Assembly (NCBI GenBank): GCA_009914755.4
Contig: CP068257.2
Location: 2,368,001 to 2,432,000, forward strand
Length of the DNA: 64,000 bases
Origin: the human T2T-CHM13v2.0 reference genome, Homo sapiens
Reading direction: 5' to 3'
Below are positions 1,700-41,530 of the stretch, piece by piece. A model generated the notes under the pieces. The model did no database searches. It had not been told where the DNA came from and saw only the letters and a program-made list of their open reading frames with translations. Position 1 is the first letter of the stretch. Each line of letters starts with the position of its first letter. A program made the position numbers and the translations under genes.

Positions 1700-3970
1700 A
1701 GATGGGTTTGGGGTCACTGAGGGATGCGTGGGAGCCATTCCTGTATAGGTACAGGTCATAGGGAGATAGTCTCGTGAGGCCTGTGAGTGTCTAGGGTTGT
1801 CCTGGGTGCCTGGGGCTGACTGTGGCAGAAATCTGGGGAAGGCTGGAGAGAAGCTGGGAGACCCAGGAGAGTCCCTGAAGGCAGGGGGTGAAGAGGTGAA
1901 AGAAATGGGGGAGGGTTTCAGTAAGGTCCGTGAGTTTGTAGGTGATTCCTGGGTGCGGGAAGCTGACTCCAGGTGAAATCTGGAGATGGTTGGAGAGTAG
2001 CTGAGAGAGACAGAAGAGTCCCTGAGGGCTGGGGGTGAGAACATGAGGGAGACGGGGGAGTAAGTCAGTGAAATTCGTGAGTTCGGTGGTGTATCGTGGG
2101 TGCCTGGAACTGACTCCAGCTGGAATCTAGAGAAGTTTTGAGAGTAGCTGAAGGAGACACAAGAGTCCCTGTGGGCTGAGGGCAAAGACCTGAGAGAGAC
2201 CAGGGAGGACCTCAGTGAAGACTGTGAGTCTGTAGGTGATTCCGGAGTGTGGGAGGCTGACTCCCGCTGAAATCTGGGCGTGGTGGGAGAGTAGCTGGGA
2301 CAGACAGGAGAGTCCCAGGGGGCTGGGGATGAAGACATGAGAGAGACTGGGGAGTAACTCGGTGAAATTGCTGAGTTGGTTGGTGATACCTGGGTGCCTG
2401 GAACTGACCCCCGCTGAAATCTGGGCATGGTTGGAGAGTAGCTGGGACACACAGGAGAGTCCCTGAGGGCTGGGGGTGAAGACATGAGCGAGACCGGGGA
2501 GTAACTGAGTGAAACTGGTGAGTTTGGTGGTGACTCCGGGGTGCCTGGAACTGACTCCAGCTGAAATGTGGGCGTGGTTGGAGAGTAGCTGGGACAGACA
2601 GGAGAGTCCCTGAGGACTGGTGAAGACATGAGAGAGACTGGAGAGTAATTGAGTGAAATTGGTGAGTTTGGTGGTGATTCCTGGGTGCCTGGAACTGACT
2701 CCCGCTGAAGTGTGGGCGTGGTTGGAGAGTAGCTGGGACACACAGGAGAGTCCCTGAGGGTTGGAGATAAAGACGTGCTAGAGACTGAGGAGTAACTGAG
2801 TGAAATTGGTGAGTTTGGTGGTGATTCCGGGGTGCCTGGAACGGACTCCAGCTGAAATGTGGGCGTGGTTGGAGAGTAGCTGGGACAGACGGGAGAGTCC
2901 CTGAGGGATGGTGAAGACATGAGAGAGACTGGGGAGTAACGCAGTGAAATTGGTGAGTTTGGTGGTGATTTCTGGGTGCCTGCAACGGACTCCCGCTGAA
3001 GTGTGGGCGTGCTTGGAGAGTAGCTGGGACAGACAGGCGAGTCCCTGAGGGTTGGAGATAAAGACGTGCTGGAGACTGGGGAGTAACTCAGTGAAAGTGG
3101 TGGGCTTGGTGGTGATCCCAGGGTTCCTGGAACTGACCCGCGCTGAAATGTGGGCGTGGTTGGAGAGTAGCTGGGACAGACTGGAGGGTCCGTAAGGGCT
3201 GGGGGTGAAGACGTGAGAGAGACTGGCGAGGATCTCACTGAGGTCTGTGAGTTTGTAGGTGTTTCTGGGGTGTGGGGTACAGACTCCCGCTGAAATCTGG
3301 GCGTAGTTGGAGAGTAGCTGGGACAGACAGGAGAGTCATGGGTGGCTGGGGGTGAGCTGCTGGATGATGGCAGTAAGAACATATGGTACATTATTGATGA
3401 ATGAGGTGACTGTGAAGAATCTCCAGAGGAGGTCACGGGAGAACACAATGACATGAGTGACTGTCCTGCTTGGTTAGGAAAGGGAAACGTAAAGTTGTGG
3501 AATTCTGTTGATGATGGATGTGAGAGTGGTGAAGCCCTGCGGGATGATGTAGAGGACTTCCACATCCCTGGTGAGGAGCTGCCCCTTGGGTCTGAGTTTC
3601 TGGGAGGGGAGAGGGAGAAGCTGGGTGAGGCAGGCATGAATCTTGAGGAGTCAGGGCTGGGGGACCGCTCATATTCTCCCGAGACCTGTGAGTCTCTGGG
3701 GGACTCCTGGGTGCATGGGGCTGACTCCCGCAGGAACCTGGGGATGGCTGGAGAGTAACTGGGAGCCACAGGAGGGTCCCTGAGGCCTGGGGGTGAAGAG
3801 ATGCAAGACACAGGGGTGGAGCAGCGTGAGGCTCGTGAGTTTGTAGGTGATTCCTGGGTGTGGGGGGCTGACTCCAGCTGAAATCTGGGGTTGCTTGGAG
3901 AGTAGCTTGGAGACACAGGAGACCCCCCGAGAGCTGGGGGTGAGATGCTGCGTGATGGCAGTAAGAACAT
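1700..3970. repeat. tandem satellite array, alternating 147-bp and 144-bp monomers (291-bp dimer), about 16-18 units; degenerate units extend to about 1120
   Basis: the motif ctgggtgcctggaactgactcc(a/c)gctgaaat(c/g)tgggcgtggttggagagtagctgggacagacaggagagtccctgagg recurs at about 2389, 2536, 2684, 2827, 2975 and 3118; the encoded 49/48-aa peptide repeats alternate in the 882-aa minus ORF. Confidence 0.85.
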
Positions 3971-4989: not shown

Positions 4990-5265
4990 TTCCTTATGGC
5001 ACTGGCTGGTAGCCCAACTGAATCCTGAATCAGGTTGTGGTGGCCTATCATCTGCCCCTGATGCACTCAGCCACAGTGAGGACTGAATCAGGTTGTTGTG
5101 ACCTATCATCTGAGCCCACACACTCAGCCGCAGTGAGGACTGAATCAAGTTGTGGTGGCCTGTCATCTGCCCCTGACGCACTCAGCCACAGTGAGGACTG
5201 AATCAGGTTGTTGTGACCTACCATCTGAGCCCACACAGTCAGCCGCAGTGAGGGGACAGGTGTGA
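4990..5265. repeat. local tandem repeat, about 59-bp unit x4 (118-bp dimer x2), inside an unclassified LTR/MER-like element (4470-5300)
   Basis: ctgaatcaggttgtggtggcctatcatctgcccctgatgcactcagccacagtgaggactg repeated; produces the nested minus ORFs at 4809-5278. Confidence 0.8.
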
Positions 5266-11719: not shown

Positions 11720-12754
11720 TCTCTTTTTAAAATTTCATTTGCAGATTGTTCATTGTTAGTTTATGGAAATGCAACTGACTTGTGTGTGTTACTGTATCCT
11801 GAAACTTTGTTGAATTTCATTATTTTACCAGTATTTTGTGGAATTTCAGGATTTTTCCCATTACATCCTGTTGTCTGTGAACAAAATTTTGTACTTTTTC
11901 CTTTCCAATTTGCATGCTTTTTATTACTTTCTCTTGCCTAATTATTCTGAGTAGAAATTCCAGTGCTTTGGTGAATAGAAGTGGCAGGAAGGGATGTTGC
12001 TATCTTATTCCTGATCCTAGAGGAAAAGATTTTAGTTTTTCACCATTGAGTATGATGTTAGCTGTGAGCTTTTCATGTACAATCTTTATTTACTGAGGAG
12101 TTTCCATATATTACTAATTCTTTGAGTCTTTTTATTACAAAAGGTGTTCATCTGGCTCTGGAACCAGATAAATGTTGACCTGATAGAATGGATTGGAATG
12201 TCCCCTTCTGGTTTTTGAACATTTTTGGAATATTTTGCAGAGGATTGGCATTAATTCTTCTTGAAATGTTTGGTAAAATTCTCCAGTGAAGTTATCTGGA
12301 CCTGGAATTTTCTTTTTTGGGGGGTTTTTGATTACTGGTTGAATCTTCTTACTAGTTACAGGTCTCTTTGGATTTTTTATTTCTCCGTGATTCAGTATGG
12401 TGGTTTGTGTTTCTAGGAATTTATAAATTTATTCTAGGTTGCCCAGTTTTGTGGCATACGGTTGCTCACATTAGTCTCTTTTAATCTTTTTCATTTCTGT
12501 GGCATCTGTTGTACTGTCACCTCTTTTATTTACGATTTTAGTATTTGAGATTTCTCTTTTTTTCTTAATATAGCTGTGAGTTTTAAAATTGTTATTGATC
12601 TTTAAAAAAAACTCAGTGTGTTTTTTTTTCCTTTTTTTTCTGGTATTATTCTGCTTATCTCTGCTCTAATCTGTTATTTTCTTCCTTTTGCTTGGTTTGT
12701 CATTAGTTTTTTTTTTCCCCCCCTTCAGGTGTAATGTTAGGTTATTGATTTGAG

Positions 12755-12990
12755 ATCTTTCTTCTTTTTAATTTAAGCACCTGCAGCTATAAGCTTCCCT
12801 TTAGCATGGGTTTGAGATCTTTCTTCTTTTTAATTTAAGCATCTGCAGCTGTAAGCTTCCCTTTAGCATGGGTTTGAGATCTTTCTTCTTTTTAATTTAA
12901 GCATCTGCAGCTGTAAGCTTCCTTTTAGCACGGGTATGAGGTCTTTCTTCTTTTTAATTTAAGCATCTGCAGCTGTAAGCTTCCCTTTAG
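12755..12990. repeat. about 59-bp tandem duplication x4 inside the old L1
   Basis: gagatctttcttctttttaatttaagcatctgcagctgtaagcttccctttagcatgggttt repeated four times. Confidence 0.85.
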
Positions 12991-13179
12991 CACTGCCTTT
13001 GTTGCCTCCTCCTGAGTTTGGGTATGTCATGGTTTTCTTTTCGTTTGCTTAAACATTTTTTGTCCTATTGTAATATAATTGCATTGTTTTTAATAAAGGT
13101 AATTAATGAAACACATAATGAATTTTGCTTCTGTTTTTATAATATTTTAAGTATTCTTAACTCAGAAATGTAAATTTTA

Positions 13180-18804: not shown

Positions 18805-19125
18805 CTGATTCCTCCCTCCCATCCTTCCATTCCATTCCTTGTATTATTGTTCCTTATTTCCCTTGTGTATAAGCATACATAATCTATCTGTGTGTATTTA
18901 TTGTTATCTACAAACTTATTGGTCAGATCAATTATGAATAAATACATGTTTTTATTTTACCACAATTCCTCCCTCCCATCCTTCCATTGCATTCCTTGTA
19001 TTAGTGTTACTCATTTCACTTGTGTATAAGCATACATAATCTATCTGTGTGTATTTGTTATTGTCTGTGAACTTCTTGGTCAGATCAATTAAGAATAAAT
19101 ATATAGGTTTTTATTGTACCGCAAT
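18805..19125. repeat. about 160-bp tandem duplication x2 (plus partial copies at 18612-18805)
   Basis: cctccctcccatccttccattccattccttgtatta...gtgtataagcatacataatctatctgtgtgtattt...ggtcagatcaatta repeated. Confidence 0.8.
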
Positions 19126-19149
19126 TCTTTCTTTAATGATCTTTTTAAA

Positions 19150-20159: not shown

Positions 20160-20300
20160 AGCTGATGCTCTCTTAGTCTCTTTAGGCTACTATAACAAAA
20201 TACTTTAGACTGAGTAATTCATAAACAACAGAGATTATTGCTCACAGATCTGGAGGCTGGAAAGTCCAAGACTAAAGGGCCAGGATATTTGGTGTTTGGT
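20160..20300 (-). mobile_element. MaLR/ERVL-type LTR fragment (3' part only), paralog-A copy; its terminus is replaced by the satellite array
   Basis: ctcttagtctctttaggctactataacaaaatactttagactgagtaattcataaacaacagagattattgctcacagatctggaggctggaaagtccaagactaaaggg is the reverse complement of the common LTR end ...tccagaactgtgagaaataaatttctgttgtttataagccacccagtctatggtattttgttatagcag...gactaagaca. Confidence 0.6.
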
Positions 20301-23300
20301 GAAGGTCAAACATTCAGACACTTGCAACGACTATAGTGACAGCAGCAGTCTTCAGAAATCCTATGTGAGGGACAAACACTCAGAAGCCAGCTGGAGTGTT
20401 CTAGAATCCTATGTGAGGGAAAAACATTCAGACCCCAGCAGTAGTGTTGTGGAATCCTATGTGAGGGAAGAACATTCAAACCCTCGTAGCAGTGTTCTGG
20501 AATCCTATGTGAGGGAAAAAAATTCAGAACCTCGTAGCAGTGTTCTGGAATCCTATGTGAGGGAAAAAAATTCAGAACCTCGTAGCAGTGTTCTGGAATC
20601 CTATGTGAGGAACAATCAGACCACATCAGGAATGTTCTGGAATCCTATGTGAGGGACAAACATTCAGAGTACAGCAGGAGTGTTCTGGAATCCTATGTGT
20701 GGGACAAACATTCAGACCACAGCAGGAGTGCTCTGCAATCCTATGTGAGGGACAAACATTTCAAAACCTCGTAGCAGTGTGCTGGAATGTTATGTCAGGG
20801 ACAGACATTTAGACCCTCACAGCAGTGTTCTGGAATCCCATCTGCGGGACAAACATTCAGACACTCGCAGCAGTGTTCTGGAATTCTATGTGAGGGACAG
20901 ACATTCAAACCCCAACAGCAGTGTTCTGGAATCCTATGTGAGGGACAAACTTTCAGACCCTCGTAGCAGTGTTCTGGAATCCTATCTGAGGGACAAACAT
21001 TCAGACCCTCATAGCACTGTACTGGAATACTATGTGAGGGACAAACATTCAGACCATGGCAGTTCCGAAATGCTATGTGAAGGACAAACATTCAGACCTT
21101 CGTAGCAGTGTTCTGGAATCCTATGTGAGGGACAAGCATTCAGAACCTCGTAGCAGTGTCCTGGAATCTTATGTGAGGGAGAGACATTTAGACCCTCGCA
21201 GCTGTGTTCTGGTATCCCATGTGAGAGACAAACATTCAGACCCTCCCAGCCGTGTTCTGGAATTCTATGTGAGGGAAAGACATTCAAACCCCAGCAGCAG
21301 TGTTCTGGAATCCGATTTGAGGGGCAGACATTCAGACCACAGCAGCAGTGTTCTGGAATCCTATGTGAGGGACAAACATTCAGACCCCAGCAGCAGTGTT
21401 CTGGAATCCTATGTGAAGGAAAAATATTAAGATCCTCGTAGCAGTGTCCTGGAATCATATGGAAGGGACAACCATTCAGACACCAGCAGAAGTCTTCTGG
21501 AATCCTAGGTGTGGGAAAAACATTCAGAACCTAGTAGCAGTGTTCTGGAATCCTATGTGAGGGACATACATTCAGACCACGGCAGCAGTGTTCTGGAATG
21601 GTATGTGAAGGACAAACATTCAGACCCTTGTAGCAGTGTTCCGGAATCCTATGTGAGGGACAAACATTCAGACCACGGCAGCAGTGTTCCGGAATCCTGT
21701 ATGACGGACCAACATTCAGACCCTTGCAACAGTGTTCTGGAATACTAGGTGAGGGAGAATTATTTATACCCTCGTAGCAGTGTTCTGTAATCCTATGTGA
21801 GGGACAAACATTCAGACCCCAGGAGCAGTGCTCTGACATCCTAAGTTAAGGGAAACATTGAGACCCCAGCACGAATGTTCTGGAATCCTATGTGAGGGAC
21901 AAACATTCAGACCACGGCAGGAGTGTTCTGGAATCCTATGTAAGGAACAAACATTCAGACCTCAGCAGGAGTGTTCTGGTATCCTATATGAGGGATAAGC
22001 ATTTAGACCCTCGTAGCAGTGTTCTGGAATCCTATGTGAGGGAGAAGCATTCAGAGCACAGCAGGAGTGCTCTGGAATCCCATGTTAGGGACAAACATTC
22101 AGAACCTGGTACCATTGTGCTGGAAACCTATGTGAGGGACAGACATTTAGACCCTCGCAGCAGTGTTCTGGAATCCCATGTGAGGGACAAACATTCAGAT
22201 CCTCGCAGCAGTGTTCTGGAATACTATGTGAGTGACAAACATTCAGACTCCAGCAGCAGTGCTCTGTATTCCTATGTGAAGGACAAACATTCAGAACCCA
22301 GGAGCAGTGTTTTGAAATCATATGTTAAGGGCAAACATACAGACCCTAGCATCAATGTTCTAGAATCCTATGTGAGGGACATACATTCAGACCCTTGCAG
22401 CAGTGTTCTGGAATCCCAGATGGGGGACAAACATTCAGACAATGGCAGCAGTGTTCTGGAATCCTATGTGAGGCACAAACACTCAGAGCCTCGTAGTGGT
22501 GTTCTGGAATCCTATGTGAGGAACAAACAATCAGACCACAGCAAGAGTGTTCTGGAATCCTTTGTTAGGGACAAACATTCAGATCACAGCAGCAGAGTTC
22601 TGGAATCCTATGTGAAGGACAAACATTCAGACCCTCGTAGCAATGTTCTGGAATCCTAAGTGAGGGACAAACTTTCAGACAACAGCAAGAGTGTTCTGGA
22701 ATCCAATGTGAGGGACAAACATTCAGACCCTCATAGTAATTTTCTGGAACCCTAAGTGAGGGACAAACATTCAGAATTTCATAGCAGTGTTCTGGAATCC
22801 TACATGAGGGATAAACATTCAGACCACAGCAGGAGTGTTCTGGAATCCTATGTGAGGGACAAAAATTCAGATGCCAGCATAAGTCTTCTGGAATCCTATG
22901 TGAGGGACAAACATTCAGACCCTCATAGCAGTGTTCTGGAATCCTGTGTGAGGGACAAACATTCAGACCACAGCAGGAGTGTTCTGGAATCCTGCGTGAG
23001 GGACAAACATTCAGACCCTTGTGGCAGTGTTCTGGAATCCTATGTGAGAGACAAACATTCAGACCCTCATAACAGTTTTCTGAAATCCTACTTGAGAGAC
23101 AAACATTCCCACCACAGCAGGAGTGTTCTCGAATCCTATGTGAGGGCAAACATTCAAACCACAGCAGGAGTGTTCTGGAATGCTATGTGAGGGACAAACA
23201 TTCAGACACTCGCAGCAGGCTTCTGGAATCCTACGTGAGGGACAAATATTTAGACAATGGCAGCAGTGTTCTGGAATCCTATGTGGGGGACAAACATTCA

Positions 23301-26300
23301 GAGCCTTGTAGTGTTGTGGAATCCTATGTGAGGGACAGACATTTAGACCACAGCAGCAGTGTTCTGGAATCCCATGTGAGAGACAAACATTCAGACCCCG
23401 AACAGAAGTGTTCTGGAATCCTATGTGAGGGACAAACATTTAGACCCTCTTTGCAGTGTTCTGGAATCCTATGTGAGGGACAAACATTCAGACGCCAGCA
23501 GCAGTGTTTTGGAGTCGTATGTGATGGACAAACATTCAGACCCTTGTAGCTTCTTCTGGAATCCTACGTGAGACACAAACACTCAGAACCCAGCAACAGT
23601 GTTCTGGAATCCTATGTGAAGGACAAGCATTCAGACCCTCGTAGCAGTGTACTGTAATCCTATGTGAGGGACAAACATTCAGACCATAGCAAGATTGTTC
23701 TGGAATCCTATGTGAGGAACAAATATTCAGACCAGGACAGCAGTGTTTTGTAATCCTGTCTGAAGGACAAACATTGAGACCCTTGTAGCTGTTTTCTGGA
23801 ATCTTATGTGAGGAACAAACACTCAGACCATAGCAGGAGTGTTCTGGAATCCTGTGTGAGGGAGAAATATTCAGACCACTGCATGAGTGTTCTGGAATTC
23901 AATTTGAGGGACAAACATGCAGACCCTCGTAGGAGTGTTCTGAAATCCTATGTGATGAACAAACATTCAGACCACAGCAAGAGTGTTCTGGAATCCTATG
24001 CGAGGTACAAACATTCAGACCACAACAGGAGTGTCCTGGAATCCCATGTGAGGTGCAAACATTCAGACCCTCATAGCAGTGTTCTTGAATGCTATGTGAG
24101 GGACAAAATTTCACAGCACAGCAGGAGTGTTCTGGAGTCCTATGTGATGGACAAACATTCAGAACACAGCAGGAGTGTTCTGAAATACTATGTGAGGGAC
24201 AAATATTCAGACCACAGAAGGAGTGTTCTGGAATCCTTTGTGAAGGACAAACGTTCAGACCCTTGTAGCAGTGTTCAGGAATCCTATGTGAGGGACAAAC
24301 ATTGAGACCCCAGTAGGAGTGTTCTGGAGTCCCATGTGAGGGACAAAGATTCAGACTTTCGTAGCAGTGTTTTGAAATCCTATGTGAGGGACAAACGTTC
24401 AGACCACAGCAAGGGGGCTCTGGAATCCTATGTGAGGGACAAACATTCAGAACTTCATAGCCGTGTGCTGGAATTTTATGTGAGGGAGAGATATTTAGAC
24501 CCTTGGAGCAGTGTTCTGGAATCCCATAGGAGAGACATACATTCAGACCCTCCCAGCAGTGTTCTGGAATTCTATGTGAGGGACAGACATTCAAACCCCA
24601 GCAGCAGTGTTCTGGAATGTGATGTGAGGTACAAACATTCAGACACCAGCAGAAGTGTGCTGGAATACTATGTGAGGGAGAAACACTCAGACCCTCGTAG
24701 CAGTGTTGTGGAATCCTATGTGAAGGACAAGCATTCATACCCTCGTAGCAGTGTCCTGGAATCATATGTGAGGGATAAACTTTGAGAATCCAGCAGAGGT
24801 GTTCTGGAATCCTAGATGTGGGACAAACATTCAGACCCTCATAGCAGTGTTCTGGAATCCTATGCGAGGGAGAAACTTTCAGACCACGGCATGGAAGCAG
24901 AGGTGTTCTGGAATCCTAGGTGTGGGACAAACATTCAGACCCTCATAGCAGTGTTCTGGAATGCTATGTGAGGGAGAAACTTTCAGACCACGGCAGCAGT
25001 GTTCTGGAATGCTACATGAAGGACAAACATCCTGACCCTCCTAACAGTGTTATGCAATCCTATGTGAGGGACAGACATTTAGACCCTCGCAGCTGTGTTC
25101 TGGAGTCCTATGGGAGGGACAAACATTCAGACCCTTGCAGCAGTTTTCTGGAATCCTTTGTGAGGGAGAGACATTCAGACCCTCATAGTGGTGTTCTGGA
25201 ATCCTGTGTGACAGACAAACATTCAGAACCTGGTATCAGCGTTCTTCCATCCTATATCAGGGACATACATACCCCAGCCACAGTGTTCTGGAATCCTATG
25301 TGACAGACAAACATACAAACAACAGCAGGAGTGTTCTGGAATCCTATGTGAGGAACAAACATTTAGACCCTCGTAGCAGTGTTCTGGAATCCTATGTCAG
25401 GGACCAACATTCAGACCCTAGAAGCAGTGTTCTGGAGTGTTATGAGACAGAAAAGCATTCAGACCCTCATAGCAGTGTTCTGGAATTCTATGTCAGGGAT
25501 ATTCAGACCACAGCAGAAATGTTCTGGAATCCTATGTGAGGCACAAACCTTCAGACCACAGCAGGCGTTTTCTGGAATCATATGTGAGGGACATTCAGAC
25601 CATCACAAGAGTGTTCTGGAATCCTATGTGAAGGGCAAACATTCAGACTCCAGCAGCATTGTTCTTCAATGCTATCTGAGGGAGAAACTTTCAGACAACA
25701 GCAGGAGTGTTCTGGAGTCCTATGTGAGGGACAAACTTTCAGAACACAGCAGGAGTGTTCTGAAATCCTATGTGAGGGACAAACATTCAGACCACAGCAG
25801 GAGTGTTCTGGAATCCGTTGTGAAGGAGAAATATTCAGACCCTTGTAGCAGTTCTCTGGAATCCTATTTGAGGGACAAATATTCAGAACACAGTAGAAGT
25901 ATTCTGAAATCCTATGTGAGGGACAAACATTCAAACGACAGCAGGAGTGCTCTGGAGTCCTATGTGAGTGTCAAACATTCAGACAACAGCAGGAGTGTTC
26001 TGGAATCCTATGTGAAGAACAAGCATTCAGACCCCAGCAGCAGTGTTCTGGAACCCTATGTGAGGGAAAAGCATCCGTATCCTCGTAGGGGTGTTCTAGA
26101 ATCCTATGTGAGGGAAAAAAAACTCAGAATCCAGGAGCAGTGCTCTGGAATCCTATGTGAGGGACAAACATTCAGTCCACAGCAGCAGTGTTCTGGACTG
26201 CTATGTGAGGGGCCAACATTCAGACCATAGCAGGAGAGTTCTGGAGTCCTATGTGAGGGATAAACATTTAGACCACAGCAGGAGTGTAACAGAACCCTAC

Positions 26301-28005
26301 ATGAGGGACAAACATTCAGACCACGGCAAGATTGTTCTGGAATGCTCTCTGAGGGCCAAACATTGAGACCTCAGCAGCAGTGTTCTGGAATCCTATGTGA
26401 TGGACAAACATTCAGCTCACAGCAGGATTGTTCTGAAATCCTATGTGAGGGACAGACATTTGGACCCCATCAGCAGTGTTCTGGAATCCTATTTGAGGGA
26501 CAAACACTCAGAACCCAGCAGCAGTATTCTGGAATCCTAAGTGAGGGACAAATATTCAGACCCTCTTAGCAGTGTTCTGGAATCCTATGTGAATGACAAA
26601 CGCTCAGAATCCAGCACCACTGTTCTGAAATCATATGTGAAGGACAAACCTTCAGACCAGAGCAGTAGTGCTGTGGAATTTTATGTTAGAGACAAACATT
26701 CAGACTCCAGCAGCAGTGTTCTTGAATGCTATCTGAGGGACAAACATTCTAACCACAGCAGGAGTGCTATGGAGACGTATGTGAGGGACAAAAATTCAGA
26801 ACACAGCAGGAGTGTTCTGGAATCCTATTTGAGGGAAAATCTTTCATACCCTCATAGCAGTGTTCTGGAATCCTATTTGAGGGAAAAAAAACTCAGAATC
26901 TAGGAGCAGTGTTCTGGAATCCTATGTGAGGGAAAAACATTCAGTCCGCAGCAGCAGTCTTCTGGAATGCTATGTGAGGGACAAACATTCAGATCATAGC
27001 AGAATTGTTCTGGAATCCTATGGGAGGGACAAATATTCACTCCACAGCAGGAGTGTTCTGGAGTCCTATGTGAGGGACAAACATTCAGACCCTTGTAACC
27101 GTGTTCTGGAATTCTATGTGAGGGACATTCAGACCCCAGCAGCAGTGTTCTTGAATGCCATGTGAGGGACAAACACTCAGACTCGAGCAGCAGTTTTCTG
27201 GAATCTTATTTCAGGATCAAATATTCGGACCCTCCTAGCAGTGTTCTGGAATCCTATGTGAGGGACAAACCCTCAGAACCCAGCAGCAGTGTTCTGGAAT
27301 CCTATGTGAGGGAGAAACATTCAGACAACAGCAGGAGTGTTGTGGAATCGTATGTGAGGAACAAGCATTTAGACCACAGTAGGAGTGTTCAGGAATCCTG
27401 TGTGAGGGACAAACATTCAGACCCTCATAACAGTGTTCTAGAAGCCCATGTGAGGGACAGACACTCAACCTAGCAGCAGTGTTCTGGAATCCTATGTGAG
27501 GGACAAACATTCAGACCACAGCAGGAGTGTTCTGGAAACCTGTGTGAGGGACAAACATTCAGACCACAGCAGGAGTGTTCTCCAATCCTATTTGATGGAC
27601 ATTCACACCCCAGCAGCAGTGTTCTGGAATCCTATGTGAGGGACAAACCTTCAGACCCCAACAGCAGTGTTCTGAAATCCTATGTGAGGGACAAACATTC
27701 AGAGCATTGTAGCCATGTTCTGGAACCCTATGTGAGGGACCAACACTGAGATCCCAACAGCAGTGTTCTGGAATCCTATGTGAGGGGCAAGCATTCAGAC
27801 CACAGCAGGAGTGTTGTGTTATCCTATGTGAGGGACAAACATTCAGACCACAGCAGGAGTGTTCTGGAATCCTTTGTGTAGGACGAACATTCAGACCCTT
27901 GTAGCAGTGTTCTGTAATCCTATGTGAGGGACAAACATTCAGACCCTCGTAGCAGTGTTCTGGAATCCTATGTGAGGGACAAGGATTCAGACAAGGACAA
28001 GGATT
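20300..28005. repeat. 48-bp tandem satellite, block 1 (about 160 monomers)
   Basis: monomer gttctggaatcctatgtgagggacaaacattcagacc(ac/ct)(ag/cg)(c/t)agcag(g/c)agt counted as 48 nt; peptide period of 16 aa in the ORF track (SSVLESYVRDKHSDPR); recurrent 44-bp variants lack aaac (gggacattcagacc) at about 25497, 25590, 27121 and 27598. Confidence 0.95.
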
Positions 28006-28492
28006 CTCTTGATTGGAATAGTTTCAGAAGGAATAGTACCAGCTCATCCTTGTACCTTTGGTAGAATTCGGCTGTGGATTACGTCTTGTCCTGGACTTTT
28101 TATGGTTAGTATGCTATTATTGTCTCAATTTCAGAGCCTGTTATTTGTCTATTAAGAGATTCAACTTCTTCCTGGTTTAGTCTTGGGAGGGCTTATGTGT
28201 TGAGGAATTTATCCATTTCTTCTAGATTTTCTAGTTTATTTGCATAGAGGTGTTTACAGTATTCTCTGATGGTAGTTTGTATTTCTGTGGGATCAGTGGT
28301 GTTATCCCCTTTATCATTTTTTATTGCATCTATTTGATTCTTCTCTCTTTTCTTCTTTATTAGTCTTGCTAGCGGTCTGTCAATTTTGTTGATCTTTTTA
28401 AAAAACCAGCCCCTGAATTCATTGATTTTTTGAAGGGATTTTTGTGTCTCTATCTCCTTCAATTGTGCTCTGATCTTAGTTATTTCTTGGAA
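28006..28492 (-). mobile_element. L1 (L1PA-like) inverted 5' segment from twin priming; ORF2 roughly aa 180-330 in antisense
   Basis: minus ORF 28193-28462 [89 protein letters not shown] matches L1 ORF2 between the EN and RT domains. Confidence 0.9.
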
Positions 28493-30472
28493 GTCAAATT
28501 GTCCCTGTTTGCAGATGACATGTTTGTGTATCTAGAAAACGCCATCATCTCAGCCCAAAATCTCCTTAAGCTGGTAAGCAACTTCAGTGAGGTCTCAGGA
28601 TACAAAATCCATGTGCAAATATCACAAGCATTCTTATACAGCAATAACAGGCAAACAGAGAGCCAAATCATGAGTGAATTCCCATTCACAATTGTTTCAA
28701 AGAGAATAAATTACCTAGGAATCCAACTTACAAGGGATGTGAAGGACCTCTTCAAGGAGAACTATGAACCACTGCTCAACAAAATAAAAGAGGACACAAA
28801 TCAATGGAAGAACATTCCATGCTCATGGGTAGGAAGAATCAATATCGTGAAAATGGCCATTCTGCCCAAGGTAATTTATAGATTCAATACCATCCCCATC
28901 AAGCTAACAATGATTTTCTTCACAGAATTGGAAAAAACTAAAGTTCATATGGAACCAAAAAAGAGCCCACATGGCCAAGTCAATCCTAAGCTAAAAGAAC
29001 AAAGCTGGAGGCATCACGCTACCTGACTTCAAACTGTACTACAAGGCTACAATAACCAAAGCAGCATGGTACTGGTGCCAAAGCAGATATATAGATCAAT
29101 GGAACAGAACAGAGCCCTCAGAAATAATACCACACATCTACAACTATCTGATCTTTGACAAACCTGACAAAAGAAATCGGGAAAGGATTCCCTATTTAAC
29201 AAATTGTGCTGGGAAAACTGGCTGGCCATATGTAGAAAGCTGAAACTGGATCCCTTCCTTTCAACTTATACAAAAATTAATTCAAGACGTATTAAAGATT
29301 TAAATGTTAGACCTAAAACCATGAAAACCCTAGAAGAAAACGTAGGCAATACCATTCAGGACATAGGCATGGGCAAAGACTTCATGTCTTAAACATCAAA
29401 AGCAATGCCAACAAAAGCCAAAATTGACAAATGGGATATAATTAAACTAAAGAGCTTCTGTGAAGCAAAAGACATACCAGTGAACAGGCAACCTACAGAA
29501 TGGGAGAAAATTTTTGCAGTCATCTGACAAAGGGATAATATCCAAAATCTACAATTAACTCAAACAAATGTACAAGAAAAAACCCCATCAACAAGTGGGC
29601 GAAGGATATGAACAGACACTTCTCAAAAGAAGACATTTATGCAGCCAACAGACACATGAAAAATGGTCATCGTCACTCGCCATCAGAAAAATGCAAATCA
29701 AAATCACAATGAGATATCATCTCACACTAGTTAGAATGGCGATCATTTAAAAGTCAGGAAACAACAGATGCTAGAGAGTATATGGAGAAACAGGAACACT
29801 TTTACACTGTTAGTGGGATTGTAAAGTAGTTCAACGATTGTGGAAGACAGTGTGGTGATTCCTCAGGGATCTAGAACTAGAAATACCATTTGACCCAGGC
29901 TTCCAATTACTGGATATATACCCAATGGAATATAAGTCATGCTGCTATAAAGACACATGCACACGTATGTTTATTGCGACGCTACTCACAATAGCAAAGA
30001 CTTGGAACCAACCGAAATGTCCAAATGTCCAACAACGATAGACTGGATTAAGAAAATGTGGCACATATACGCCATGGAATACTATGCAACCATAAAAAAT
30101 GATGAGTTCATGTCCTTTGTAGGGACATGGATGAAGCTGGAAATCATCATTCTCAGCAAACTATCACGAGGACAAAAAAACCAAACACCACATGTTCTCA
30201 CTCATAGGTGGGAATTGAACAATGAGAACACGTAGACACAGGAAGGGGAACATCACACACCATGGCCTGTTGTGGGGTGGGGGGAGGGGGGATAGCATTA
30301 GGAGATATACCTTATGTAAATGACGAGTTACTGAGTGCAGCACACCAACATGGCACATGTATGCAAACATAACAAACCTGCACGTTGTGCACATGTATCC
30401 AAGAACTTAAAGTATAATAAAAAATATGTATATAAATAATTCAATACAGAAATATAATTAAAAAAGAAAGAA
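28493..30472 (+). mobile_element. L1 (L1PA-like) direct segment: ORF2 from about aa 690 to the end, plus 3' UTR and A-rich tail
   Basis: plus ORFs [49 protein letters not shown]...[25 protein letters not shown] and ...DWIKKMWHIYAMEYYATIKNDEFMSFVGTWMKLEIIILSKLSRGQKNQTPHVLTHRWELNNENT; 3' UTR ...cacgttgtgcacatgtatccaagaacttaaagtataataaaaaat. Confidence 0.9.
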
Positions 30473-31062
30473 AATGTGGTATACTATTTGGCAGTAAAAA
30501 AAGAAAACCCTGTCATTTGTAAACAACATGGATGAACCTGGAGGACAATAGGTTAAGTGAAATAGGTCAGGCACAAAAAGACAAATATATCATGACATGT
30601 CTCCTACTGGTATGTTAAAAAGTTGATCTCATAGAATTACAAAGTACAATGGTGGGTATCAGAGCTAGGGGTAAAGGGGAGTTGCCGTGATGTTAATCAG
30701 AGGATATATACTTAGAGCTAGACAGAAGGAATACATTTCAGGAGATGTGCTGTAGAGCAAGGTGATTGTAATTGATGATGACATATTGTATTCTTGAGAA
30801 ATAGAAAGTTAATGTTATGTGTATTCACCACAAAGATGATAACTATGTGAGTTGATGTATTTGTTAATTAGCTAGATTTGACCTTTTCACAATGTATGCA
30901 TACTTTGTCCCTCACATAGGATTCCAGAACGCTACTGCATTGGTCTGAATGTTTGTCCATCACATTTTACATTACAAAAAACTTGCAATGTCATATGTCA
31001 ATTAAAAATAAATATTAATAAAGTAATTTTAAAAAGACAAAAAGTAAAAGAAAAAAAACACA
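30473..31062 (+). mobile_element. older L1 (L1PB/L1M-like) 3' end (ORF2 C-terminus, 3' UTR, poly-A) with a 54-61 nt inverted satellite filler at 30904-30963
   Basis: aatgtggtatactatttggcagtaaaaaaagaaaaccctgtcatttgtaaacaacatggatgaacctggaggacaataggttaagtgaaataggtcaggcacaaaaagacaaata...gtgagttgatgtatttgttaattagctagatttgaccttttcacaatgtatgcatac...tttgtcaattaaaaataaa then an A-rich tail. Confidence 0.75.
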
Positions 31063-32430
31063 CCACAGCAGCAGTGTTCTGGAATCCTGTGTGAGGGACA
31101 AACATTCAGATGCCAGCAGCAGTGTTCTGGGATCCCATGTGATGGGCAAACATTCAGACATTCCCAGCAGTGTTCTGGAATCCTATGTGTGGGACAAACA
31201 CTCAGACCCCAGCAGCAGTGTTCTGGAATCCTATGTGAGGTACAAACATTCAGACCCTGGAATCAGTGTTCTGGAATCCTATGTGAGGGACAAATATTCA
31301 GATCATTGCATTAGTGTTCTGGAATCCTATGTGAGGGAAAAACTTTCAGACCACAGCAGCCATGTTCTGGAGTCCTATGTGACAGACATTCAGACCCTCG
31401 TAGCAGTGTTCTGGAATCTTATGTGAGGGACACGCATTCAGACCACAGCAGGAGGGTTCTGGAATCCTATGTGAGGGACAAATATTCAGACCCTCATAGC
31501 AGTGTTCTGGAGTCTTATGTGAGGGACAAACATTCAGACCCCGGCAGCAGTGTTCTGGAATCCTATGTGAGGGACAAACATTCAGACCCCAGCAGCAGTG
31601 TTCTAGAATCCTATGTAATGGACAAACATTCAGAACCTCGTAGCAGTGTTCTGGAATCCTATGTGAAGGACAGACATTTAGACCCTCGCAGCAATGTTCT
31701 GGAATCCTATGTGAGGGAGAAACATTCAGACCCTCGCAGCAGTGTTCTGGAATCCTATGTGAGGGACAAACATTCAGACCCCAGCAGCAGTGTTCTGGAA
31801 TCCTATGTGAGGGACAAACATTCAGACCACGGCAGCAGTGTTCTGGAGTCCTATGTAATGGACAAATATTCAGAACCTCGTAGCAGTGATCTGGAATCCT
31901 ATGTGAGGGACAAACTTTCTGACCCCAGCAGCAGTGTTCTGGAATCCTATGTGAGGGACAAACTTTCTGACCCTCGTATGTGTTCTAGTATTCTATGTGA
32001 GGGACAGACATTCAGATCCCAGCATCAGTGTTCTGGAATCCTGTGTGAGGGACAAACATTCAGACCCCAGGAGCAGCGTTCTGAAATCCTAAGTTAAGGG
32101 TAAACATTCAGACCCCAGCATCAATGTTCTGGAATCCTTTGTGAGGGACAAACATTCAGACCCTCGTAGCAGTGTTCTGGAATACTGTGTAAGGGACAAA
32201 CATTCAGACCCCAGGAGCAGCGTTCTGAAATCCTAAGTTAAGGGTAAACATTCAGACCCCAGCATCAATGTTCTGGAATCCTTTGTGAGGGACAAACATT
32301 CAGACCCTCGTAGCAGTGTTCTGGAATACTGTGTAAGGGACAAACATTCAGACCTCAGGAGCAGCGTTTTGGTATCGTATGTGAGGGACAAACACGCAGA
32401 CCCCAGCTGCCATGTTCTGGAATGCTATGA
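31062..32430. repeat. 48-bp tandem satellite, block 2 (about 28 monomers)
   Basis: same monomer as block 1; the array ends at ...gttctggaatgctatga|ttgggtttatactg, which aligns to ...gttctggactcttacgattgggcctcattg in paralog B. Confidence 0.95.
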
Positions 32431-37943: not shown

Positions 37944-39945
<2,002 letters not shown>

Positions 39946-41144: not shown

Positions 41145-41530
41145 AATTGAGACAGCAGTCACCCAGGCTGGAGTGCAGTGGTGTGATCATGGCTCCCTGC
41201 AGCCTCAACCTCGTGGGTTCAAGTGATATTTCCACCTCAGCCTCCCAACTAGCTAGGACTACAAGTAAGTCATTAGCTAGGACTACAAGTATGCAATTAG
41301 CTAGAACTACAAGTATGCAATTAGCTAGGACTACAAGTATGCAATTAGCTAGGACTACCAGTACGCAATTAGCTAGGACTACAAGTATGCAATTAGCTAG
41401 GACTACAAGTATGCACCACAATACCTGGCCTTTTCTTTTTTGTAGGGACGGGGTCTCACTGTGTTGCTCAGGATAGTCTCTAACTCCTGGACTCAAGCCA
41501 TCTTTCTACCTTGGCATGAGCCACTATACC
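41145..41530 (-). mobile_element. Alu carrying an internal 24-bp minisatellite (7 units at 41262-41420)
   Basis: ctaggactacaagtatgcaattag repeated inside ...cagcctcccaactagctaggactacaagta...gcaccacaatacctggcc; seen as the ARTTSMQL x7 peptide in ORF 41147-41476. Confidence 0.9.

What the first reader, a model, noticed from the sequence alone, without database searches (positions are those of the whole stretch)
28006..31062. Composite L1 insertion in the satellite: twin-primed young L1 with a 1.1-kb internal gap, next to an older L1 3' end that carries an inverted satellite filler
Segment 28006-28492 is L1 ORF2 (roughly aa 180-330) in antisense. It joins head-to-head at about 28492/28493 to a direct segment running from ORF2 about aa 690 through the 3' UTR and A-tail (to 30472). 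Inversion of the 5' part is the signature of twin priming, but here about 1.1 kb of L1 between the two pieces is missing, which is atypical. Immediately 3' is an older L1PB/L1M-like 3' end (30473-31062) ending in its own A-tail, after which the satellite resumes. Inside that older 3' UTR, at 30904-30963, there are 54-61 nt of the 48-bp satellite in inverted orientation (tttgtccctcacataggattccagaacgctactgcattggtctgaatgtttgtcc). It replaces L1 sequence with microhomology (ccatcaca / catcacatt). This indicates template switching during reverse transcription, or filler-DNA repair using the surrounding satellite.
Basis: partly seen in the sequence, partly recalled or inferred. Interest (0 to 1): 0.6.

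Follow-up and report, generated by a model that had tools for sequence, protein, structure and literature searches.

The report
Scrambled old L1 insertion in satellite
A 3-kb block that interrupts a human 48-bp (CER) satellite array is an old, messy LINE-1 insertion: its front end is flipped, an even older L1 tail rides behind it, and a piece of the satellite is copied backwards into that tail. It is a clear example of known L1 integration errors, not a new kind of element.

Summary
Several details are wrong.

- **Inverted piece.** 28004-28489 is L1 ORF2 nt 1012-1500 (aa 338-500), not aa 180-330.
- **Direct piece.** It starts at ORF2 nt 2079 (aa 693). The internal gap is therefore 578 nt, not 1.1 kb.
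- **Age.** The L1PA is 7-8% diverged from a consensus of young L1PA copies, so it is not young. Both pieces are equally diverged.
- **Older L1.** 30465-31058 is an ancient L1M-type 3' end.
- **Inverted satellite.** In that 3' UTR, 8 nt (ATCAAAAC) are replaced by 55 nt of CER satellite in reverse orientation (30904-30958). Homology (TCACAT) is present only at the right junction. This is the only reverse-oriented CER copy in the window.
- **Flanks.** There is no canonical target-site duplication (5 nt at most). A 14-nt copy of the flank sits at the 5' junction.

Best reading: one aberrant retrotransposition into the array. It combined twin priming with a long gap, an L1M tail carried by 3' transduction or RNA switching, and patches copied from the local satellite. 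The segment was later duplicated. One related contig carries 151 nt of inverted satellite, so the 55-nt patch is probably a contraction. All parts are of known kinds, so interest is modest.

The parts
20340..27992 (+). Left part of the 48-bp CER satellite array (target DNA). It ends at phase 46 of the unit (..TTCAGAC).
   Evidence: TRF: period 48, 160 copies, 77% matches. Phase. The name CER is from PMC3847771.
27993..28006 (+). 14 extra nt, AAGGACAAGGATTC, at the 5' junction. They are a direct copy of the flank 16-18 nt upstream. The last 3 nt (TTC, 28004-28006) are microhomology with L1 ORF2 nt 1498-1500.
   Evidence: GGACAAGGATTC occurs exactly only at 27977 and 27995 in the whole window. 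Junction alignment to six L1 references.
28004..28489 (-). Inverted 5' piece of the L1PA element: ORF2 nt 1012-1500 (ORF2p aa 338-500).
   Evidence: phmmer to PDB ORF2p 8uw3/8sxt, aa 338-501, E = 2e-76. blastn to L046 ORF2 nt 1500->1012, 90.8%. 92.0% to a young-L1PA consensus.
28489..30424 (+). Direct piece of the same L1PA element: ORF2 nt 2079 (aa 693) through the ORF2 end and the 3' UTR to AATAAA (30416-30421). G at 28489 is shared with the inverted piece. ORF2 nt 1501-2078 (578 nt) is absent.
   Evidence: phmmer to ORF2p aa 694-845, E = 2e-82. A single colinear blastn match at 90.9%. 93.05% to the consensus. Junction.
30419..30464 (+). Decayed A/T-rich tail of the L1PA part (A6, a TA-rich stretch, A6). 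The boundary with the L1M is ambiguous within this interval.
   Evidence: Sequence. The (TA)n length varies among related contigs L084 and L086.
30465..30903 (+). Ancient L1M-type element: decayed ORF2 C-terminus (from the ..KKMWY codons) and most of the 3' UTR, ending ..TTCACAATGTATGCATAC.
   Evidence: DNA homology to L1 3' ends L003, L013, L020, L029 and L030. Several of these loci carry ORF2p C-terminal homology upstream. About 71% identity to a crude consensus.
30904..30958 (-). 55 nt (1.15 units) of CER satellite in reverse orientation. It replaces 8 nt (ATCAAAAC) of the L1M 3' UTR.
   Evidence: all matches to the array are in opposite orientation. The L1M consensus at this site is TTCACAATGTAT-ACATAT-ATCAAAAC-ATCACATTGTA in most of the 34 loci. 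The same patch is in 7 independent contigs.
30959..31030 (+). Terminal part of the same L1M 3' UTR. It begins ATCACAT (30959-30965), which is homologous to the satellite's CTCACAT (TCACAT shared). It contains AATAAA at 31007-31012 and 31017-31022.
   Evidence: Alignment to the L1M consensus. B-type related contigs read GTCCCTCACAT here.
31031..31058 (+). A-rich tail (AAAAAGACAAAAAGTAAAAGAAAAAAAA) that ends the inserted block.
   Evidence: Sequence. The tail is identical in contigs L077 and L079-L087.
31059..32429 (+). Right part of the CER array. It resumes at phase 42-45 (CACAC|CACAGCAG), which overlaps the left flank by at most 5 nt (CAGAC versus CACAC).
   Evidence: TRF. Phase and target-site duplication search.

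Best explanation
One aberrant L1 retrotransposition into a pre-existing CER satellite array produced the whole block 27993-31058.

- **Template (inferred).** The RNA was a middle-aged L1PA followed by about 0.6 kb of an ancient L1M 3' end, polyadenylated at the L1M's own AATAAA. This could be a 3' transduction from a source L1PA sitting inside an L1M. It could also be a switch of the reverse transcriptase from an L1M-tailed RNA onto the poly(A) of an L1PA RNA, at the A-rich site AAAGAAAA.
- **First strand (inferred).** cDNA synthesis started from the right-hand side. After about 100 nt, the growing strand ended ..AATGTGAT. It paired with the similar satellite motif (ATGTGAG/TGG) and copied satellite sequence in the opposite orientation to the flanking array. 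It was then rejoined to the L1M copy 8 nt further on, without homology.
- **Where the first strand stopped (shown).** The direct piece ends at ORF2 nt 2079.
- **Twin priming (structure shown, process inferred).** The left-hand DNA end had been extended by a 14-nt copy of its own flank. It primed on the same RNA at ORF2 nt 1498-1500 (TTC/GAA) and copied back to nt 1012. This gives the inverted piece.
- **Joining (shown).** The two cDNA ends share one base, and 578 nt of L1 were left uncopied.
- **Target site (shown).** The site shows at most 5 nt of duplication and no T-rich endonuclease motif. This suggests entry at a break or an atypical nick (inferred).
- **After insertion (inferred from contigs).** The satellite block carrying the insertion was duplicated. 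In the lineage of this copy, the inverted patch shrank from about 151 nt to 55 nt by loss of two 48-nt units.
For: - **L1 coordinates and colinearity.**
- **Equal divergence of the two L1PA pieces.** 8.0% versus 7.0% from a young-L1PA consensus, and 90.8% versus 90.9% to L046.
- **Microhomology.** 3 nt at the 5' junction and 1 nt at the inversion junction. Kojima reports 2-5 nt in about 70% of 5'-inverted L1s (PMC2912911).
- **Piece lengths fit twin priming.** The lengths (about 2.6 kb forward, 0.49 kb inverted) match the published scale of 1.5 and 0.54 kb. Internal deletions are an accepted outcome when the first cDNA does not reach the internal primer (bioRxiv 10.1101/2024.08.27.596794).
- **One block in the array.** No L1M or other non-satellite sequence lies on the left side, and the array phase is continuous across the whole block.
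- **Age mismatch.** The L1M part is about 29% from a crude consensus, against 7-8% for the L1PA.
- **L1M boundary.** The L1M fragment begins at an A-rich site and ends at its own AATAAA plus A-tail.
- **Two satellite-derived patches in one block.** One is direct at the 5' junction and uses a flank variant unique to that spot. The other is inverted and is the only reverse CER in the window.
- **Precedent.** Copying of non-L1 templates under 250 bp from near the insertion site into L1 insertions is documented.
- **Shared structure.** All related contigs share the same L1M/patch/tail/CER junctions, so the structure arose once.
- **Patch length.** L087 has 151 nt whose three units are only 71-76% alike, so they are not a recent triplication.
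Against: - No source locus was found or could be searched for, so the 3' transduction is inferred only.
- 5'-inverted L1s normally carry 10-17-bp target-site duplications and rarely carry extra nucleotides at the 5' junction. Here the duplication is 5 nt at most and there are 14 extra nt.
- The 578-nt gap is far above the published median of 14.5 bp.
- The left junction of the patch has no microhomology, which is awkward for a polymerase returning to an internal site of the same RNA.
- No satellite unit in the window matches the patch better than 85-90%, so the template is unidentified.
- Phase continuity is only weak statistical evidence, because any offset of 0-20 nt could be read as a duplication.
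- The 151-nt version rests on a single metagenome contig, which may itself be a mosaic of related copies.
Confidence: 0.55

Rival explanations
1. The insertion was a single event as in the best explanation, but the inverted satellite patch was added later. A double-strand break in the L1M 3' UTR was repaired by copying nearby satellite, through snap-back or strand-invasion synthesis (polymerase-theta or SDSA-type filler DNA). The repair lost 8 nt.
For: - Deletion plus templated insertion with homology at one junction is the usual signature of such repair (established knowledge).
- Right-flank CER lies only about 100 nt away on the same strand. A folded-back 3' end would therefore give exactly an inverted copy (inverted-repeat pairs I2-I4).
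- The patch length differs between related copies (55 versus 151 nt), so this spot has continued to change after insertion.
Against: - All copies seen carry a patch with identical outer junctions. Any repair event must therefore predate their duplication.
- 151 nt is long for polymerase-theta filler.
- A second satellite-derived patch sits at the 5' junction of the same block, which favours one disorderly integration.
- The homology lies on the side expected if the strand growing from the poly(A) end made the jump (logic).
Confidence: 0.2
2. There were two separate insertions at this site. An L1M 3' fragment was already embedded in the CER array. Later an L1PA integrated at the A-rich site AAAGAAAA inside it, by target-primed reverse transcription with twin priming. 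Its 5' end joined upstream in the satellite, deleting the rest of the L1M and some satellite. The inverted patch is a third, independent event.
For: - The L1PA tail abuts a good endonuclease-like target in the L1M (GGATAAAGAAAATG in L020).
- L1-mediated target deletions are known (reference list).
- The absence of a target-site duplication is expected under this model.
Against: - It needs an element about 29% diverged from a crude consensus to have inserted directly into a CER array, with its A-tail touching satellite. The array would have to be as old as the L1M. CER is documented only in human and chimpanzee in the papers read.
- It needs the deletion to restore the satellite phase to within 5 nt, roughly a 1-in-8 coincidence.
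- It needs three or four independent rare events at one spot.
Confidence: 0.2
3. The inverted L1 piece and the 578-nt gap arose after insertion. A longer, ordinary 5'-truncated L1PA (from ORF2 nt 1012) later suffered an inversion with deletion, for example by break repair, rather than twin priming.
For: - The gap is about 40 times the typical twin-priming deletion.
- The surrounding region is recombinogenic and duplicated.
Against: - The inverted piece is exactly the 5'-terminal part and abuts the flank with microhomology. That is the topology twin priming predicts.
- An inversion whose one breakpoint coincides with the element's end, plus a simultaneous adjacent deletion, is less parsimonious.
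- The one apparent uninverted version (L077) is a chimeric assembly. It is 9% different from the window up to 29023 and 99.9% identical after that.
Confidence: 0.05

Closest known systems
Twin-primed (5'-inverted) L1 insertions (Ostertag and Kazazian 2001, cited from memory; Kojima 2010, PMC2912911; bioRxiv 10.1101/2024.08.27.596794)
   Same: - An inverted 5' piece taken from L1 sequence upstream of the direct piece.
- Microhomology at the 5' junction (3 nt) and at the inversion junction (1 nt).
- An internal deletion at the inversion point.
- Piece lengths on the usual scale.
   Different: - The internal deletion is 578 nt, against a reported median of 14.5 bp.
- There is no 10-17-bp target-site duplication.
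- There are 14 extra templated nucleotides at the 5' junction, which is rare for this class.
L1 3' transduction (Moran 1999, Goodier 2000, Pickeral 2000: own knowledge), or chimeric retrocopies made by RT template switching (Buzdin: own knowledge; PMC13174262)
   Same: - Non-L1PA sequence follows the L1PA's own AATAAA and tail.
- That sequence ends at a second AATAAA and A-tail.
- It has the same orientation as the L1.
   Different: - The carried sequence is itself an old L1 3' end.
- The source locus is unknown.
- No flanking duplication brackets the unit.
- Known template-switch chimeras place the extra RNA 5' of the L1, whereas here it is 3'.
Templated insertions or filler DNA copied from near the target during L1 integration (Gilbert et al. 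2002/2005, as cited in bioRxiv 10.1101/2024.08.27.596794, where 22 cases had templates under 250 bp)
   Same: - A short non-L1 patch (55 nt here, 151 nt in a related copy) derives from the local sequence.
- It is embedded within the inserted element.
- Homology is present at one junction.
   Different: - The patch is inverted and lies internally, about 100 nt from the 3' end, with return to the same template 8 nt away.
- The template is a tandem satellite, so the exact donor cannot be identified.
- This is an ancient germline, fixed and duplicated case rather than a tumour or cell-culture event.
Endonuclease-independent L1 insertion at DNA breaks (Morrish 2002: own knowledge; Sen 2007, PMC1920257)
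   Same: - No canonical target-site duplication.
- No T-rich cleavage motif at the target.
- Junction microhomology and extra nucleotides.
   Different: - A normal A-tail is present at the 3' end, and the element is not 3'-truncated.
- A target deletion cannot be assessed in a tandem array.

Membership tests
LINE-1 (L1PA lineage) | Sequence encodes ORF2p (reverse transcriptase region) and is colinear with L1 | tested here: met
   phmmer to solved human ORF2p: aa 338-501 (E = 2e-76) and aa 694-845 (E = 2e-82). 90-93% DNA identity to full-length human L1 copies.
LINE-1 (L1PA lineage) | 3' UTR ending in AATAAA and a poly(A) tail | tested here: met
   The alignment runs to the L1 3' end. AATAAA is at 30416-30421, followed by an A/T-rich tail.
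LINE-1 (L1PA lineage) | Flanking target-site duplication of about 7-20 bp at a TTTT/AA-like site | tested here: not met
   The longest junction-adjacent repeat is CAGAC/CACAC (5 nt, one mismatch). No T-rich motif is present (sequence).
Twin-primed 5'-inverted L1 | The inverted piece lies at the 5' end and derives from L1 positions upstream of, and not overlapping much with, the direct piece | tested here: met
   Inverted piece is ORF2 nt 1012-1500. Direct piece runs from nt 2079.
Twin-primed 5'-inverted L1 | Both pieces come from one RNA (same subfamily and same age) | tested here: inconclusive
   Divergence is equal within error (8.0% versus 7.0%). Subfamily-diagnostic sites could not be scored without Dfam or Repbase consensuses.
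Twin-primed 5'-inverted L1 | Microhomology at the 5' junction and often at the inversion junction | tested here: met
   TTC (3 nt) and G (1 nt).
Twin-primed 5'-inverted L1 | Only a small deletion or duplication at the inversion point, and a normal-length target-site duplication (typical features, not strictly defining) | tested here: not met
   578-nt deletion against a median of 14.5 bp. Target-site duplication is 5 nt at most.
L1 3' transduction | Unrelated downstream sequence between the L1's own poly(A) signal and a second poly(A) signal plus tail | tested here: met
   L1M 3' end at 30465-31030, with AATAAA at 31007 and 31017 and a tail at 31031-31058.
L1 3' transduction | A source locus where the same L1 is followed by the same sequence | not testable with these tools
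   No human or primate genome collection is searchable here.
Integration-coupled templated insertion | The patch matches sequence at or near the target site | tested here: met
   It matches the surrounding CER array at 85-90% identity, in reverse orientation.
Integration-coupled templated insertion | The patch was formed during, not after, integration | not testable with these tools
   All copies recovered already carry it. This needs orthologues or related copies from complete assemblies.
Ancient L1M-type 3' end | Homology to the L1 ORF2 C-terminus and 3' UTR of old mammalian L1 families | tested here: met
   DNA homology to loci L003, L013, L020, L029 and L030, several of which encode ORF2p C-terminal homology upstream. 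The fragment's own translation is too decayed to hit ORF2p.

The most novel reading that the evidence does not exclude
The block is a fossil of a single germline L1 integration at a break in an acrocentric satellite. During it, the nascent cDNA left its RNA template, copied about 150 nt of satellite (DNA, or possibly CER transcripts) in reverse orientation, and returned to the same RNA only 8 nt from where it left. The other DNA end also copied its own flank before twin priming. That would be a rare natural record of how L1 reverse transcription and break repair interleave inside satellite DNA.
Probability: 0.35. Interest if true: 0.45.

Novelty: new member of a known kind. Interest (0 to 1): 0.3.

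Why it matters
This locus combines four known L1 integration anomalies in one place: a long-gap twin priming, a carried-along downstream sequence, locally templated patches, and no target-site duplication. It lies in a satellite array of the kind found on acrocentric short arms. That makes it a compact natural example for studying how L1 enters satellite DNA.

It is also a useful marker. The insertion and the variable length of its inverted patch (55 versus 151 nt) could help trace duplication and exchange among CER blocks. It does not reveal a new mechanism or a new element.

Tried and rejected
- **Apparent uninverted version of the L1 (L077).** Rejected. The contig is 9% different from the window up to 29023 and 99.9% identical after that. 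Its first 1.4 kb is a younger L1 with its own inversion, so it is a chimeric metagenome assembly.
- **Finding the donor unit of the inverted patch.** No unit in the window is better than 90% (55/62-nt patch) or 85% (151-nt version). The adjacent units are not the best matches.
- **Searching for a canonical target-site duplication.** I compared the left flank with both candidate 3' ends (after 30464 and after 31058). Only satellite periodicity and 5-6-mers turned up.
- **Protein-level identification of the L1M fragment against solved ORF2p.** No hit, because the fragment is too decayed. I used DNA homology to reference loci instead.
- **Exact-protein look-ups of ORFs spanning the junctions.** These failed. 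One reason is that the JGI record found (L078) stores a TTG start literally as L.
- **Ostertag and Kazazian 2001** is not held in the library.
- **Extending the L1M upstream of 30465 into the A/T-rich tail.** The similarity to L020 and L005 there is too weak and low-complexity to call.
- **Assembly artefact.** Rejected on the basis of the independent contigs.
Full report
**Setting**

A 48-bp tandem repeat runs from 20340 to 27992 and from 31062 to 32429, in the same orientation on both sides. Its unit is the 48-bp satellite called CER. [quoted passage not shown] The finding concerns the 3-kb non-satellite block between the two parts of the array.

**The L1PA part**

- Translating the minus strand of 28006-28492 and searching solved structures gives human L1 ORF2p residues 338-501 (E = 2e-76).
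- The plus strand from about 28490 gives ORF2p from residue 694 (E = 2e-82).
- For DNA references I pulled human L1 copies that contaminate bacterial genome assemblies. Several are full length with an intact 1275-aa ORF2.
- Against one of them (L046), window 28004-28489 aligns in reverse to ORF2 nt 1500->1012 at 90.8% identity. Window 28489-30439 aligns forward, as one colinear match, from ORF2 nt 2079 to the end of the 3' UTR at 90.9%.
- The missing L1 is therefore ORF2 nt 1501-2078, which is 578 nt, not 1.1 kb.
- Against a majority consensus of 11 young L1PA copies, the inverted piece is 8.0% diverged and the direct piece 7.0%. The reference copies themselves are only 1-2% from that consensus.
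- So the two pieces are the same age within error, and the element is middle-aged, not young. I could not name the subfamily without curated consensuses.

**Junctions of the L1PA part**

- *Inversion point.* The plus strand reads ..TTATTTCTTG|GAAGTCAAATTG... The G at 28489 can belong to either piece, which is 1 nt of microhomology.
- *5' junction.* The flank ..GGACAAGGATTC overlaps L1 by TTC (ORF2 nt 1498-1500).
- *Extra nucleotides.* Just left of the L1 there are 14 extra nt, AAGGACAAGGATTC. They repeat the flank 16-18 nt upstream. The variant GGACAAGGATTC occurs exactly only at these two adjacent places in the whole window, so it is a local copy made at the junction.

An inverted 5'-terminal piece taken from upstream L1 sequence, with microhomology at both joins, is the twin-priming layout (PMC2912911; PMC2837659). 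[quoted passage not shown] In a large long-read tumour set its median is 14.5 bp, and the forward and inverted parts have medians of 1.51 and 0.54 kb (bioRxiv 10.1101/2024.08.27.596794). The 578-nt gap here is therefore unusual in size but not in kind.

**The older L1**

I scanned metagenome contigs for a pattern built from the sequence on either side of the satellite patch. This returned 34 loci. Most read TTCACAATGTAT ACATAT ATCAAAAC ATCA[C/T][A/G]TTGTA. Several of them carry ORF2p C-terminal homology (aa about 950-1272, 35-50% identity to human ORF2p) just upstream, so they are genuine old L1 3' ends.

Window 30465-31030 is homologous to them, from the ..KKMWY codons to the terminal AATAAA. 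Identity to a crude consensus is about 71%. This is a much older L1M-type element than the L1PA. Its own translation is too decayed to hit ORF2p. It ends in AATAAA (31007 and 31017) and a 28-nt A-rich tail (31031-31058), which directly touches the satellite.

**The inverted satellite patch**

- Compared with the L1M loci, the window keeps TTCACAATGTATGCATAC and lacks the next 8 nt (ATCAAAAC).
- In their place it has 55 nt: TTTGTCCCTCACATAGGATTCCAGAACGCTACTGCATTGGTCTGAATGTTTGTCC (30904-30958). It then continues ATCACATTTTACATT.
- The 55 nt are 1.15 CER units in reverse orientation. All listed hits of the 30473-31062 query to the array are in minus orientation, with a best hit of 90% over 62 nt (E = 5e-19). 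An ungapped scan finds 47 near matches, all on the plus strand, and no other reverse copy in the window.
- At the right junction the satellite would continue CTCACAT and the L1M continues ATCACAT, so TCACAT is shared. At the left junction there is no shared base.
The homology is one-sided.

**Independent copies**

Exact-protein look-ups of window ORFs recovered human-contaminant contigs from many metagenomes.

- L078 matches 27515-30641 at 99.9%. It confirms the left junction, the inversion junction and the L1PA/L1M boundary.
- Seven contigs carry the 55-nt patch and its flanks exactly, and six of them also carry the right junction exactly. The structure is not an assembly error.
- L077 at first looked like an uninverted version. 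It is a chimera of another L1 with this locus.
- Three contigs (L083, L084, L086) are 2-3% different from the window overall and up to about 7% in places, and read GTCCCTCACAT at the right junction. They look like diverged duplicate copies, though the contigs may be mosaics.
- One contig (L087) has the same outer junctions but 151 nt of inverted CER, which is 3.15 units. Its three units are only 71-76% alike. That is far more diverged than the copies are from each other, so they cannot be a recent triplication of one unit.
- The likely history is an original patch of at least 151 nt that lost exactly two units (96 nt) in the lineage of the window's copy. This rests on one contig and needs confirmation.

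**Target site**

The left array ends at unit phase 46 (27992), or at phase 42 if the 14-nt copy is counted. The right array resumes at phase 42-45 (31059-31062). The only possible duplication is CAGAC/CACAC. There is no T-rich endonuclease motif. No repeat links the left flank to the sequence after the L1PA tail either. Kojima found that 5'-inverted L1s are not associated with short duplications and rarely have extra nucleotides at the 5' junction. This integration was therefore atypical, possibly at a pre-existing break. That is inference.

**One event or several**

I favour one event, for four reasons.

1. Nothing but satellite lies to the left of the L1PA, and nothing but the L1M lies between the L1PA tail and the right array.
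2. An element about 29% diverged from a crude consensus is unlikely to have inserted by itself into this array with its tail touching satellite.
3. The L1M fragment starts at an A-rich site and ends at its own poly(A) signal. This is what read-through transcription (3' transduction) or a jump of the reverse transcriptase onto an L1PA poly(A) would give.
4. Two satellite-derived patches occur in the same block.

Copying of nearby non-L1 templates under 250 bp into L1 insertions during integration is documented.

The weaknesses are real. No source locus is known. The phase argument is statistically weak. The patch's left junction lacks homology. The patch could equally be a later break-repair filler that predates the duplications.

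The two-insertion model with a target deletion remains possible, at about 0.2. A post-insertion inversion is unlikely, at about 0.05.

**Verdict**

It is an old, duplicated L1 insertion that stacks several known integration anomalies. It is a good textbook-style example and a potential marker for the history of CER blocks. It is a new instance of known kinds, not a new kind.

Noticed in passing
L087 (human gut metagenome contig), positions 303-453; corresponds to window 30904-30958: A related copy has 151 nt (3.15 units) of inverted CER between the same L1M junctions, instead of 55 nt. Its L1M left part is 6.6% different from the window, but its right part is 99.7% identical, so the contig may be a mosaic of related copies.
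   Followed up: partly
L083, L084, L086 versus window 29793-31598: Diverged duplicate copies of the same composite (2-3% different overall, up to about 7% in places). They carry C instead of A at 30959 (reading GTCCCTCACAT) and a variable (TA)n length at 30421 in the L1PA tail. The locus therefore exists in several copies in human DNA.
   Followed up: partly
L077, positions 1-1905: This metagenome contig is a chimera of a younger L1 copy, which has its own 5' inversion near position 428, with this locus. It mimics an 'uninverted' allele and is a warning about using such contigs for repeat structure.
   Followed up: yes
L035-L076 (genome-contig hits): 42 contigs filed under bacterial species representatives (Mycobacterium, Streptomyces, Psychrobacter and others) are human L1 sequence. 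Several are full length with an intact ORF2. This is human contamination in public bacterial assemblies.
   Followed up: partly
window 1800-3355: A 147-bp tandem repeat with 10.6 copies, also scored by TRF at periods of 291 and 438 bp. GC is about 55% with strong G-over-C skew. It is probably the ACRO1-type acrocentric satellite (from memory, not tested).
   Followed up: no
window 38642-39817: An 84-bp periodic array whose consensus encodes the C2H2 zinc-finger linker ..[14 protein letters not shown]... This is a KRAB-type zinc-finger gene or pseudogene a few kb from the satellite.
   Followed up: no
window 12749-12992; 5025-5253; 41246-41415; 18808-19127; 666-797: Other short tandem arrays: 62 bp x3.9 at 96% identity, 58/115 bp x4, 24 bp x7, 157 bp x2, and (AGGA)33.
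   Followed up: no
window 30050-30061 and 30468-30479: The same 12-mer, AAGAAAATGTGG, occurs in the L1PA ORF2 and at the start of the L1M fragment. These are the homologous ..KKMW.. codons of the two L1 generations. The L1M fragment therefore begins at the position homologous to one about 420 nt earlier in the L1PA.
   Followed up: no
window 20280-20340 and 32400-32430: Both outer edges of the CER block pass abruptly into unique sequence. The block is only about 12 kb (9 kb of satellite plus the insertion), smaller than the roughly 40-60-kb CER blocks described at the distal junction.
   Followed up: no
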